From assembly GCF_017348835.2 (NCBI RefSeq), contig NZ_CP071375.1: 64,000 nucleotides of DNA; one strand, 5' to 3'. Source of the DNA: Escherichia coli (GTDB lineage Bacteria; Pseudomonadota; Gammaproteobacteria; Enterobacterales; Enterobacteriaceae). Made by a program: the position numbers. This document shows, piece by piece, positions 32,201-35,200 of this stretch; positions within the stretch are counted from its first letter, which is position 1, and every line of letters starts with the position of its first letter.

Positions 32201-35200
32201 CGTTGGGCTACACCGACGCCGGTCTGGTGTTTTTAGGCGCAGGCGTTTTCTCATGGCTAAGCCTTGAACCGGTGATCTTGCAGCGTCTGCGCAGTTCGGG
32301 AGAATTACCCACGGCACTGCGGACATCACTCGGCATTCAGCTCGCTCCTGCGCTGGTGGCCTGTAGTGCCTGGCTGAGCGTCAACGGCGGCGAGGGTGAC
32401 ACGCTGGCGAAAATGCTTTTCGGTTATGGACTGTTGCAACTGCTGTTTATGCTACGTCTGATGCCATGGTATCTCTCCCAGCCATTTAATGCTTCATTCT
32501 GGAGTTTCTCGTTCGGCGTATCTGCACTGGCAACCACCGGTTTGCATCTGGGGAGTGGCAGCGATAATGGATTTTTCCATACACTGGCGGTGCCGCTGTT
32601 TATCTTTACCAATTTTATTATTGCAATACTGCTCATCCGTACTTTGGCGCTTCTGATGCAGGGAAAATTGTTAGTCAGAACCGAGCGCGCCGTTTTAATG
32701 AAAGCAGAGGACAAAGAATGATCATTCGTGACGAAAATTATTTTACTGATAAATATGAATTAACCCGCACACACTCTGAAGTACTGGAAGCGGTGAAAGT
32801 GGTTAAACCGGGTAAAACGCTGGATCTGGGCTGTGGCAATGGTCGTAACAGTCTTTACCTGGCAGCCAATGGTTATGATGTTGACGCATGGGATAAAAAT
32901 GCCATGAGTATCGCCAACGTCGAGCGCATTAAATCTATTGAAAATCTGGATAATTTACACACTCGGGTCGTTGATCTGAATAACCTCACATTTGCTGGAC
33001 AGTACGATTTTATTCTTTCGACTGTGGTGCTGATGTTCCTTGAGGCTAAAACCATCCCAGGGCTGATTGCCAATATGCAACGTTGCACGAAACCTGGCGG
33101 TTACAACCTGATTGTGGCGGCGATGGATACCGCCGATTATCCATGTACTGTCGGCTTCCCGTTTGCCTTCAAAGAGGGAGAATTACGTCGATATTACGAA
33201 GGCTGGGAGAGGGTGAAATACAATGAAGACGTCGGCGAGCTGCACCGCACCGACGCCAACGGTAATCGTATTAAACTACGTTTCGCCACGATGCTGGCAC
33301 GTAAAAAATGACCCGGTAAGAACAAAGCGCGTGAAAATTCCCCACGCTGAGATGGTTTACTGTTCTTCTTTTCGGTAAGCATATTTTTTATCGAAGGGAT
33401 GTGAAATTAATCACAGTAGTCGAAGTTTTTTAGCAGCTTAACTTACTGAAATTTAACTACTGATGATTGACTTAGCCCCTTTTTCGGCATTGACTATGTC
33501 GTCTGAAAAGGGGCTGAAAAATTTATTTTCACCAACACTTTTTTTGCCACAACACGAAGCGGCGCTTTTTGCTATAACTTAGAAAGTAATATAATCATCT
33601 CAGGAAACTATTCATGCGTACCACATCATTTGCGAAAGTTGCAGCTTTATGCGGCTTGTTGGCTCTGTCTGGTTGTGCCTCTAAAATCACCCAGCCAGAC
33701 AAATATTCTGGTTTTTTAAACAATTACTCTGATTTAAAAGAAACAACCTCGGCTACAGGTAAACCTGTTTTACGTTGGGTAGACCCGAGTTTTGATCAAA
33801 GCAAATATGACAGCATCGTCTGGAACCCAATCACTTATTATCCGGTACCGAAACCGTCGACCCAGGTAGGGCAGAAAGTTCTGGATAAAATTTTGAACTA
33901 TACCAACACCGAAATGAAAGAAGCGATAGCGCAGCGTAAACCACTGGTTACCACCGCTGGGCCGCGTAGTCTGATTTTCCGTGGGGCCATTACCGGTGTA
34001 GATACCAGCAAAGAAGGGCTGCAATTCTATGAAGTGGTTCCTGTTGCATTAGTGGTTGCGGGGACGCAAATGGCTACAGGCCATCGTACCATGGATACTC
34101 GCCTCTATTTTGAAGGTGAGCTGATTGATGCAGCGACTAATAAACCGGTTATCAAAGTCGTTCGTCAGGGCGAAGGTAAAGACCTGAATAACGAAAGTAC
34201 GCCAATGGCTTTCGAAAATATTAAACAAGTTATTGATGACATGGCGACCGATGCCACCATGTTTGACGTTAACAAAAAGTAGTTCCAGACGCGCCATCGT
34301 TAGATGGCGCTTTTTATCCGGTGCGCCGTAAAACCCCGTCCTTCAGGGCGGGGATATAAGGCGCGGTTTTCCACCTAACAGGTGTTTGCTGTTGTTCAAT
34401 GTATTGGCGGATGACGGATATTGGCGCACCTCCGCAGCTACTGGCAAAATAGCCAGGACTCCACAAAACGCCTTTGTAGTAATACCTGACTGCAATATCT
34501 GGTCGATCTCGTCGCAGTAACCTACCCGATACGCCTTTGAGGCTGTTTACCAGACTGGATATCGCCAGTTTGGGAGGTTAGTTAATTAACAAATGGACGT
34601 GATCTGGTTCGCCATCCATTTCAACCAGTTCAGCTTCAAAATCAGCACATACATTTGAAAAGTAACTGCGTAGTTTTTCTGTCGCGTCATGGTCAAAAAT
34701 CTGGCGTCGGTATTTGGTGACAAAGACCAGGTGAACATGCATCAGGGAAACACAATGCCTTCCACGCCGGATATCGGTTTCTTTTTTCACAGACCAAAGT
34801 ATCATTTGACCTGTGAAACGATTACAGGCATTTAAATTCCAGTTAAGACCAGGTGGTCAACAGGAGTGTGAAATGAGGCGCTTCGCAGGCGCATGTCGTT
34901 TCGTTTTCAATCGTGCTCTGGCACGTCAGAATGAGAATCATGAGGCAGGTAATAAATACATCCCTTACGGGAAAATGGCTTCCTGGCTGGTTGAGTGGAA
35001 AAATGCCACTGAAACGCAATGGCTTAAAGATTCTCCCTCACAGCCATTGCAACAGTCACTGAAAGACCTTGAGCGGGCTTACAAAAACTTCTTCCGGAAG
35101 CGGGCTGCTTTTCCCCGATTCAAAAAGCGGGGACAGAATGATGCATTCCGCTACCCGCAGGGCGTTAAGCTCGATCAGGAAAACAGCCGTATTTTTCTGC

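What the first reader, a model, noticed from the sequence alone, without database searches (positions are those of the whole stretch)
33468..33512. Long inverted repeat in the tehB-ydcL intergenic region
AGCCCCTTTT-(22 nt)-AAAAGGGGCT forms a 10-bp stem with A/T-rich flanks on both sides. It could be a bidirectional terminator or a protein-binding palindrome.
Basis: seen in the sequence. Interest (0 to 1): 0.15.

Follow-up and report, generated by a model that had tools for sequence, protein, structure and literature searches.

The report
Hairpin ending the tehAB transcript
The inverted repeat between tehB and ydcL in E. coli is real and most likely folds in the tehAB messenger RNA as a 3'-end stem-loop, at the spot where related bacteria carry ordinary terminators; it is an ordinary unannotated feature, not a bidirectional terminator or a regulator's binding site.

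Summary
The repeat exists: AGCCCCTTTT / AAAAGGGGCT, 22 nt apart. It lies at 33474-33483 and 33506-33515, 3-6 nt from the stated coordinates, in the 302-nt tehB-ydcL spacer of E. coli. It is single-copy, present in about 5,400 of 5,426 complete genomes, and unannotated. As + strand RNA it extends to a 19-pair hairpin (33472-33517, about -24 kcal/mol, z about -5). The - strand folds worse because of G.U pairs. No U run follows the stem on either strand, so it is neither a canonical nor a bidirectional intrinsic terminator. In 80 Enterobacteriaceae loci a stable hairpin ends about 100 nt before the ydcL start, just upstream of a conserved ydcL promoter block. In many genera that hairpin is a textbook terminator of the upstream gene. 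Citrobacter and Salmonella carry a different U-less hairpin there, with clear compensatory substitutions. This argues for an RNA structure and against a protein-binding palindrome. Best reading: a 3'-end stem-loop of the tehAB transcript that defines or protects the 3' end, with at most weak termination. No published 3' end, Rho-dependent region or sRNA was found here. Ordinary; low interest. Seen in passing: a perfect, conserved CRP consensus site at 33400-33415.

The parts
33474..33483 (+). 5' arm of the perfect inverted repeat (AGCCCCTTTT)
33506..33515 (+). 3' arm of the perfect inverted repeat (AAAAGGGGCT)
33472..33517 (+). Full predicted RNA hairpin: 13 outer pairs (two of them G.U), a 3-nt bulge, a 6-pair inner helix (33485-33490 with 33496-33501, one G.U) and a 5-nt apical loop. 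About -24.4 kcal/mol on the + strand against -16.7 on the - strand.
33518..33540 (+). Tract that follows the stem (AAAATTTATTTTCACCAACACTT). It begins with an A run, not a U run, so the U tract required of an intrinsic terminator is missing.
33523..33600 (+). G-poor stretch directly downstream of the hairpin (C 22%, G 12%, C/G 1.89, above the 95th percentile of 78-nt windows in this window). Weakly rut-like. It overlaps the ydcL promoter block.
32718..33311 (+). tehB, last gene of the tehAB unit whose 3' untranslated region carries the hairpin, 162 nt after the stop codon
33541..33582 (+). ydcL promoter-like block conserved across Enterobacteriaceae (TTTTTGCCACAAC ... TTTGCTATAACTT, i.e. an extended -10-like TGCTATAAC). 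The hairpin ends just upstream of it. The in vitro RpoS-holoenzyme SELEX peak lies in this spacer.
   Evidence: PMC5493296
33614..34282 (+). ydcL (DUF3313 lipoprotein), the downstream co-directional gene that the hairpin precedes

Best explanation
The inverted repeat encodes a stem-loop in the + strand RNA at the 3' end of the tehA-tehB transcription unit, immediately upstream of the separate ydcL promoter. Proposed mechanism: RNA polymerase coming from tehAB transcribes the hairpin. Because no U tract follows, intrinsic release there is at best inefficient. Transcription is released further downstream, by Rho or by weak termination, or continues into ydcL. 3'-to-5' exonucleases then trim the RNA back to the base of the stable hairpin, which sets and protects the tehAB mRNA 3' end. 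Shown here: the structure, its strand preference, its position, and selection for pairing at the analogous site in a sister clade. Inferred: that it defines or protects a 3' end, and that termination is Rho-dependent or weak.
For: (1) The + strand RNA fold is -22 to -26 kcal/mol with z -4.6 to -5.3. The - strand is weaker (-16 to -19, z -3.6 to -3.8) because three pairs are G.U. Over 30 Escherichia, Citrobacter and Salmonella sequences the + strand is the more stable in 26 (Wilcoxon p 1.6e-5; the sequences are not phylogenetically independent). (2) Position: in 80 ydcL loci from Enterobacteriaceae, nearly all have a stable hairpin ending roughly 75-108 nt before the ydcL ATG. By a strict terminator rule, 23 of 35 loci with a different upstream gene and 5 of 20 other tehB-linked loci have a canonical GC stem plus T run there. 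In all but one of these the stem ends 100-110 nt before the ATG. The E. coli hairpin ends 96-98 nt before the ATG. In Enterobacter the upstream gene is a co-directional 530-aa ORF that ends just before that terminator. (3) Citrobacter and Salmonella, which also have tehB upstream, carry a different hairpin without a U tract at the same place. 10 of its 15 pairs show changes on both sides, against 5.1 +/- 1.4 in shuffles (0 of 500 reach the observed value) and 1-4 in slid controls. 83.5% of cells are paired, against 26-49% when slid. (4) All five Escherichia lineages keep the hairpin. The changes seen are mostly wobble or pair-improving: C to U giving G.U in L005, and G.U to A-U in strain JCH767. 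Arm identity is 0.85-0.88, against 0.67 for the proximal 3' UTR. (5) There is no canonical + strand terminator anywhere in the spacer, so this is the only strong 3' structure tehAB has. (6) The anatomy matches what Dar and Sorek 2018 (PMC6061677) describe for Rho-dependent transcripts: stable stem-loops not followed by U-rich sequence, with rut sites immediately downstream. Here the 78 nt after the stem have C/G 1.89, above the 95th percentile.
Against: No 3' end and no bicyclomycin-sensitive region are listed for tehB, ydcL or this coordinate range in Adams et al. 2021. No spacer, 3'UTR or 5'UTR node appears in a RIL-seq-based sRNA survey (PMC8175672). There is therefore no direct transcript evidence. 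C content downstream is only 22%, so the rut-like signal is weak, and it overlaps a promoter conserved for other reasons. A covariance model built from the Citrobacter/Salmonella hairpin does not detect the Escherichia hairpin. The covariation evidence therefore transfers by position, not by demonstrated homology. Within Escherichia there are too few independent changes to prove selection on pairing: RNAalifold's covariation term over the whole spacer was unfavourable, at +2.12.
Confidence: 0.55

Rival explanations
1. It is a functional intrinsic (Rho-independent) terminator, possibly bidirectional. The hairpin itself releases RNA polymerase on one or both strands.
For: It is a stable GC-based hairpin at the end of an operon, at the same position as canonical terminators in other genera. 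A U-rich run (UUUAUUUU) begins 4-6 nt after the stem, depending on where the stem is taken to end.
Against: The consensus scan finds no + strand terminator in 33200-33750. The first 8 nt after the extended stem are AAAAUUUA. On the - strand the tail is AAGUCAAUC. The T and A runs are inside the stem. There is no convergent gene. No Term-seq 3' end is listed.
Confidence: 0.12
2. It is a DNA palindrome bound by a dimeric regulator that controls the ydcL promoter about 70-110 bp downstream.
For: The outer arms GCCCCTTTT / AAAAGGGGC are nearly invariant in sequence within Escherichia. It lies upstream of a promoter, and an in vitro RpoS-holoenzyme SELEX peak maps to this spacer at a resolution of 105 bp or coarser (PMC5493296).
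Against: The half-sites are 32 bp apart centre to centre, which is unusual for a dimer. The structure is strand-asymmetric because of G.U pairs. At the analogous site in Citrobacter and Salmonella the sequence changes freely while pairing is kept, and in other genera the site is a plain terminator. No known motif was recognised.
Confidence: 0.07
3. It belongs to a ydcL leader or an unannotated small RNA that starts upstream of, or at, the hairpin, for example from a promoter served by the conserved CRP site at 33400-33415. In that case it acts as a 5'-terminal stabilising stem-loop or another leader structure.
For: There is a perfect CRP consensus, TGTGA-N6-TCACA, 59 nt upstream. It is the only one in the window (0.13 expected), and both half-sites are invariant in five Escherichia lineages. 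A weak -35/-10 pair (TTAACT, 18 nt, GATGAT; GATAAT in E. albertii) would place a start at about 33474, read from the sequence. The whole spacer folds unusually well as + strand RNA (z -5.65, against -2.16 for the - strand).
Against: The promoter scan does not call that promoter, which matches 8 of 12 positions. CRP would be centred near -66.5, on the wrong helical face for class I activation. An Escherichia isolate (L002) has lost the CRP site and 125 nt but keeps the hairpin. Other genera have an upstream-gene terminator at this place. There is no covariation support for the long-range fold and no spacer node in the RIL-seq survey.
Confidence: 0.1
4. It is a decaying relic of an ancestral terminator, or a chance repeat, with no present function.
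For: Such repeats arise by chance in 64 kb. The U tract that would make it a terminator is absent. No transcript end has been reported. Within-genus divergence is too low to prove selection.
Against: It is retained from E. coli to E. albertii with intact pairing, while the neighbouring 3' UTR has diverged to 67% identity. It also survives a 125-nt deletion next to it in L002. The analogous hairpin without a U tract in the sister clade is clearly under selection for pairing.
Confidence: 0.16

Closest known systems
[quoted passage not shown]
   Same: An energetically stable stem-loop downstream of a gene, not followed by a U-rich stretch, with a G-poor, relatively C-rich stretch directly downstream.
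   Different: No mapped steady-state 3' end and no bicyclomycin-sensitive read-through is on record for this site. The rut-like signal is weak and overlaps a promoter.
Canonical intrinsic (Rho-independent) terminators
   Same: A GC-rich stem at the 3' end of a co-directional operon. It occupies the same position as true terminators upstream of ydcL in Enterobacter, Leclercia, Klebsiella, Trabulsiella, Yokenella and others.
   Different: No U tract after the stem. The hairpin is long, with an internal bulge. It is not called by the consensus scan.
Intercistronic mRNA-stabilising stem-loops (REP-type barriers to 3' exonucleases; from general knowledge, e.g. Newbury et al. 1987)
   Same: It lies between two co-directional genes, is a stable hairpin without a terminator tail, and could give the upstream segment its own stability.
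   Different: It is single-copy, not a member of a repeated family. tehAB-ydcL co-transcription has not been shown.
The hairpin at the same site in Citrobacter and Salmonella (CTGCGTTCAGCA-T6-TGCTGAGCGCAG)
   Same: Same place relative to tehB and to the ydcL promoter. It also lacks a U tract and also prefers the + strand. Salmonella shares TTCGGCATT with the inner helix of the E. coli hairpin.
   Different: The sequences cannot be aligned with confidence. A covariance model of that hairpin finds held-out Citrobacter loci (E 3e-9 and 2e-6) but not the Escherichia hairpin at E up to 10.

Membership tests
Canonical intrinsic terminator | Stable GC-containing stem-loop downstream of a co-directional gene | tested here: met
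   -22 to -26 kcal/mol, z about -5. It lies 162 nt after the tehB stop codon.
Canonical intrinsic terminator | U tract (at least about 5 U in 8 nt) starting 0-2 nt after the stem | tested here: not met
   The tail is GAAAAAUUUAUU, or AAAAUUUA after the extended stem. There is no + strand hit in the scan of 33200-33750.
Canonical intrinsic terminator | RNA 3' end mapped at the tail | tested here: inconclusive
   There is no entry for tehB, ydcL or 1,502,1xx-1,502,5xx in the uncut Term-seq tables of PMC7815308. Expression may be too low, and other data sets could not be read.
Bidirectional intrinsic terminator | A tract 5' and U tract 3' of the stem, so that both strands read hairpin plus U run; usually between convergent genes | tested here: not met
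   The A and T runs are inside the stem. The - strand tail is AAGUCAAUC. Both neighbours are on the + strand. The - strand fold is weaker.
Protective stem-loop of a Rho-dependent transcript | Stable stem-loop not followed by U-rich sequence | tested here: met
   definition taken from PMC6061677
Protective stem-loop of a Rho-dependent transcript | C-rich, G-poor rut region directly downstream | tested here: inconclusive
   C/G is 1.89 in 33523-33600, above the 95th percentile of the window, but C is only 22% and the stretch is a conserved promoter.
Protective stem-loop of a Rho-dependent transcript | Read-through on Rho inhibition, and 3'-end loss or extension in exonuclease mutants | tested here: inconclusive
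   No Rho region for tehB or ydcL appears in supplementary file 2 of PMC7815308. No exonuclease data were accessible.
Transcription-factor palindrome | Half-site sequence, rather than pairing, conserved among orthologous sites; symmetric on both strands | tested here: not met
   The analogous site covaries. G.U pairs give strand asymmetry. Within Escherichia alone the test is uninformative.
Repeated palindromic elements (REP/BIME, ERIC, MITE) | Many copies per genome | tested here: not met
   One place per genome at the median, two at most, in both megablast and blastn searches of 5,426 E. coli genomes.
Any Rfam family | Covariance-model match at or near the gathering score | tested here: not met
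   The best hits are 13-18 bits against gathering scores of 50-88, with E 0.5-8.

The most novel reading that the evidence does not exclude
The Escherichia-specific half of the tehB-ydcL spacer may be a CRP-controlled regulatory RNA module: an upstream ydcL leader or an unannotated small RNA. This stretch is about 140 nt that Citrobacter and Salmonella lack. It folds as a chain of hairpins (z -5.65 on the + strand) and carries a perfectly conserved CRP consensus. In this reading the inverted repeat is the terminal structural hairpin of the module rather than the end of tehAB.
Probability: 0.07. Interest if true: 0.4.

Novelty: new member of a known kind. Interest (0 to 1): 0.1.

Why it matters
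It matters little beyond annotation. If confirmed, it would mark the 3' boundary of the tehAB transcript and add one more example of an operon-end stem-loop without a U tract that is nevertheless kept by selection. That bears on how many E. coli operons end without a canonical terminator. It also shows that the slot just upstream of the ydcL promoter is always occupied by a 3' hairpin across Enterobacteriaceae, whichever gene lies upstream. The neighbouring conserved CRP site is the more testable lead for ydcL/tehAB regulation.

Tried and rejected
(1) Small ORF across the hairpin (ATG 33464 to TAG, 39 codons, read): rejected. The start codon is ACG in L004 and ATA in E. albertii, and L004 and O157 carry 1-nt indels that shift the frame. 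(2) Repeat or mobile-element remnant: rejected, because the spacer is single-copy per genome in both near and distant searches. (3) Known RNA family: no credible Rfam hit. (4) Homology to the Citrobacter/Salmonella hairpin: covariance model R1 finds held-out Citrobacter loci but not Escherichia, so only positional analogy is claimed. (5) Whole-spacer structured RNA: the z-score is striking, but RNAalifold on five Escherichia lineages gives an unfavourable covariation term, and only 3 of 76 pairs have double changes. It is kept only as the low-probability novel case. (6) A second script that forced single closed hairpins picked odd windows for many loci, so its output was not used beyond the strand comparison, which was redone cleanly. 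(7) Literature: no paper discusses this spacer apart from a SELEX table. Supplements of Dar and Sorek 2018, Conway 2014, the Rend-seq annotation paper, the 3'-UTR valve paper and RIL-seq 2016 are not held. The TERMITe and Cappable-seq supplements had no hit. The paper ID tried for a published E. coli dRNA-seq TSS data set is not held. (8) NsrR and tehB (PMC1274295): this concerns tehB homologues' promoters and is irrelevant to this site.

Full report
OBSERVATION. The window carries AGCCCCTTTT at 33474-33483 and its perfect reverse complement AAAAGGGGCT at 33506-33515, 22 nt apart. The sequence, the spacer length and the gene context are correct. tehB ends at 33311 and ydcL starts at 33614, both on the + strand. 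RefSeq annotation of an identical spacer (strain H15) and of MG1655 gives the same genes and nothing annotated between them. The hairpin sequence is identical in MG1655, at 1,502,317-1,502,358.

A perfect repeat of this size is not by itself improbable. 80% of dinucleotide shuffles of the window contain at least one inverted repeat with arms of 10 bp or more and a spacer of 3-30. The real window has 16 hits in 9 distinct repeats, against a shuffle mean of 2.1 hits. The fold is what stands out. As + strand RNA the 42-nt core gives -22.1 kcal/mol (z -5.3) and the 86-nt context gives -26.3 (z -4.6), with 0 of 200 shuffles as stable.

ANATOMY. On the + strand the stem extends to 33472-33517. It has 13 outer pairs, a 3-nt bulge, a 6-pair inner helix (CGGCAU/AUGUCG) and a 5-nt loop. 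Three of the pairs are G.U. Those wobbles become A.C mismatches on the other strand, which folds to only -15.9 (core) or -16.7 (extended) kcal/mol.

The stem is followed by GAAAAAUUUAUUUUC on the + strand and by AAGUCAAUCAUC on the - strand. The consensus scan of 33200-33750 finds no + strand terminator-like site at all.

No Rfam family matches. The spacer is single-copy in 5,406-5,412 of 5,426 complete E. coli genomes, by both megablast and blastn. It is therefore not a REP-, ERIC- or MITE-type repeat.

COMPARATIVE EVIDENCE. I fetched 80 ydcL loci from as many Enterobacteriaceae species. tehB is the upstream neighbour in Escherichia, Citrobacter, Salmonella, Kluyvera, Trabulsiella, Yokenella and some others. 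In Enterobacter, Leclercia, Lelliottia, Raoultella and most of the Klebsiella loci a different gene lies upstream. In Enterobacter it is a co-directional 530-aa ORF.

A block just upstream of ydcL is conserved across all of them (TTTTTGyCACAAC ... TTTGCTATAAC). It is nearly invariant within Escherichia (0.97 pairwise identity). This is the likely ydcL promoter. An in vitro RpoS-holoenzyme SELEX peak is reported in the tehB>ydcL spacer (PMC5493296), at 105-bp probe spacing. Bracketing against rydC and ydcA places it between the hairpin and the ydcL start.

Immediately upstream of that block, nearly every locus has a stable hairpin ending roughly 75-108 nt before the ATG. Under a strict rule (contiguous stem of at least 5 pairs, at least 3 G-C pairs, loop of 3-8, at least 5 T in 8), a canonical terminator is present in 23 of 35 loci with a non-tehB neighbour and in 5 of 20 other tehB-linked loci. 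In all but one of these 28 loci the stem ends 100-110 nt before the ATG. None of the 20 Citrobacter/Salmonella loci passes the rule. In Escherichia only a spurious inner hairpin in L002 does. The E. coli stem ends 96-98 nt before the ATG, which is the same slot.

Citrobacter and Salmonella have a different hairpin there (consensus CTGCGTTCAGCA-T6-TGCTGAGCGCAG), also followed by an A-rich tail rather than U. That hairpin is under visible selection for pairing. RNAalifold predicts 9 pairs, 8 of them with compensatory changes. For a 15-pair structure, 83.5% of cells are paired. 10 pairs have changes on both sides, against 5.1 +/- 1.4 in shuffles (0 of 500 reach the observed value) and 1-4 when the partner is slid by 1-3 columns.

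Over 30 Escherichia, Citrobacter and Salmonella sequences the + strand fold is the more stable in 26 (means -20.3 and -16.3 kcal/mol). These sequences are related, so the p-value of 1.6e-5 is only indicative.

A covariance model of the Citrobacter/Salmonella hairpin finds two held-out Citrobacter loci (E 3e-9 and 2e-6). It does not find the Escherichia hairpin at E up to 10. The two hairpins are therefore positional analogues, not demonstrable homologues, although Salmonella shares TTCGGCATT with the E. coli inner helix.

WITHIN ESCHERICHIA. The hairpin is present in E. albertii, three cryptic-clade or divergent lineages, and all E. coli sampled. The changes seen are mostly pair-preserving. 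They include C to U giving G.U (L005), G.U to A-U (strain JCH767), and U.G to C-G with a register shift (L002). T33504A in L003, L004 and L006 creates a new 4-pair inner helix.

Pairwise identity of the arms is 0.85-0.88. This lies between the proximal tehB 3' UTR (0.67) and the promoter (0.97). One Escherichia isolate (L002) has lost about 125 nt of the spacer but keeps the hairpin. There are too few independent events for a formal covariation claim within the genus.

TRANSCRIPT EVIDENCE. None was found. The uncut curated 3'-end table, the Rho-region table and the 5'UTR/ORF-internal table of Adams et al. 2021 (PMC7815308) have no entry naming tehB or ydcL, and no coordinate in 1,502,100-1,502,599. 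A RIL-seq-based sRNA survey lists only the tehB and ydcL coding-sequence nodes, with negligible sRNA scores (PMC8175672). Several other data sets are not held as text. The absence is compatible with low tehAB expression, so it weakens rather than refutes a 3'-end role.

INTERPRETATION. The strand asymmetry, the position at the end of a co-directional operon, the fact that this slot holds the upstream gene's terminator throughout the family, and the compensatory evolution of the analogue without a U tract in the sister clade all point one way. The element is an RNA stem-loop belonging to the tehAB 3' end. It is not a DNA palindrome for a regulator, and it is not a bidirectional terminator.

Because the U tract is missing, I do not file it as a canonical intrinsic terminator. 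Its anatomy fits the class described by Dar and Sorek 2018 (PMC6061677): stable stem-loops without a U-rich tail that mark and protect the 3' ends of Rho-terminated transcripts, with rut sites just downstream. The 78 nt after the stem are G-poor (C/G 1.89, above the 95th percentile of this window). That signal is weak and is confounded by the promoter.

I therefore commit to a tehAB 3'-end-defining and protecting stem-loop with at most weak intrinsic termination, at about 0.55. The rivals are a true intrinsic terminator (0.12), a leader or sRNA element tied to the CRP site (0.10), a regulator-binding palindrome (0.07), and a relic or chance repeat (0.16).

NOVELTY AND SCORE. The hairpin is unannotated and undiscussed in the literature I could search, but it is an ordinary kind of element. 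Interest is 0.1.

The only less ordinary thread is the Escherichia-specific half of the spacer. It folds far better than shuffles as + strand RNA (z -5.65, against -2.16 for the - strand). It also holds a perfect CRP consensus whose half-sites are invariant in five lineages. Covariation does not support a long-range structure, and no promoter is convincingly placed, so I give that reading about 7%.

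Noticed in passing
window 33400-33415: A perfect CRP consensus, TGTGAAATTAATCACA (TGTGA-N6-TCACA). It is the only one in the 64-kb window (0.13 expected by chance). 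Both half-sites are invariant in five Escherichia lineages, while the surrounding 3' UTR is only 67-78% identical. It is absent from Citrobacter and Salmonella and is deleted in L002. No target promoter could be placed convincingly: it would be centred at about -66.5 for a + strand start at the hairpin, and at about -36.5 for a - strand promoter-like site.
   Followed up: partly
window 33312-33620 (+ strand): The whole tehB-ydcL spacer folds to -91.5 kcal/mol against -62.6 +/- 5.1 for shuffles (z -5.65); the - strand gives z -2.16. It appears as a chain of hairpins (about 33327-33347, 33366-33398, 33404-33470, 33472-33517). There is also a long-range pairing of 33347-33357 with 33593-33603, next to the ydcL ribosome-binding site. 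RNAalifold on five Escherichia lineages gives no covariation support.
   Followed up: partly
window 33316-33441 versus L002 (Escherichia sp. MOD1-EC7003) and L007-L026: The Escherichia spacer (about 302 nt) is some 125-150 nt longer than that of Citrobacter and Salmonella (about 150-180 nt). One Escherichia isolate (L002) has a 178-nt spacer that lacks about 125 nt, including the CRP site, but keeps the hairpin and the promoter.
   Followed up: partly
window 33329-33347 and 33378-33405 (- strand): The consensus scan calls a - strand promoter-like site (TTCACA-16-TATGCT, overlapping the CRP site) and, about 30 nt downstream of it, a - strand terminator-like hairpin (GCGTGGGGAATTTTCACGC plus GCTTTGTTCT). 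Together they would give a transcript of about 50 nt antisense to the tehB 3' end. The number of sites found is close to the chance expectation.
   Followed up: no
window 33541-33582: A block conserved across Enterobacteriaceae upstream of ydcL: TTTTTGCCACAAC, then 16 nt, then TTTGCTATAACTT (extended -10-like TGCTATAAC with C at -13, RpoS-like). There is no -35 at canonical spacing, and the consensus promoter scan does not call it. An in vitro RpoS-holoenzyme SELEX peak is reported in this spacer, and an RpoE peak inside ydcL (PMC5493296).
   Followed up: partly
window 33466-33472 and 33489-33495: The direct repeat ATTGACT occurs twice, 23 nt apart: once just before the hairpin and once in its inner helix/loop. 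Both copies are invariant in the Escherichia sequences that align cleanly (every row of the alignment except the rearranged strain 22AR0750). It resembles a -35 hexamer (TTGACT), but no matching -10 lies at 16-18 nt.
   Followed up: no
L085 (E. coli 22AR0750, NZ_CP195454.1) 55-125: This complete genome shows a local rearrangement with partial tandem duplication of the 5' half of the hairpin (TTAGTCCCTTTTTCGGCAGCCCCTTTTTCGGCATTGACTATGTCTTTTTCGGCATTGACTATGTCG...). It may be slippage at the repeat or an assembly artefact.
   Followed up: no
window 34578-36021: An IS609 remnant directly after ydcL: a frameshifted IS200/IS605 tnpA pseudogene (- strand) and an intact insQ (TnpB-family RNA-guided endonuclease, 402 aa, + strand), as annotated in RefSeq.
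   Followed up: no
window 12235, 13365, 18263, 19195, 37246, 40009, 48198, 53351: Eight other perfect inverted repeats with arms of at least 10 bp and a spacer of 3-30 nt. Together with the finding, the repeats give 16 hits against a shuffle mean of 2.1. Most are probably terminators or similar; none was examined.
   Followed up: no
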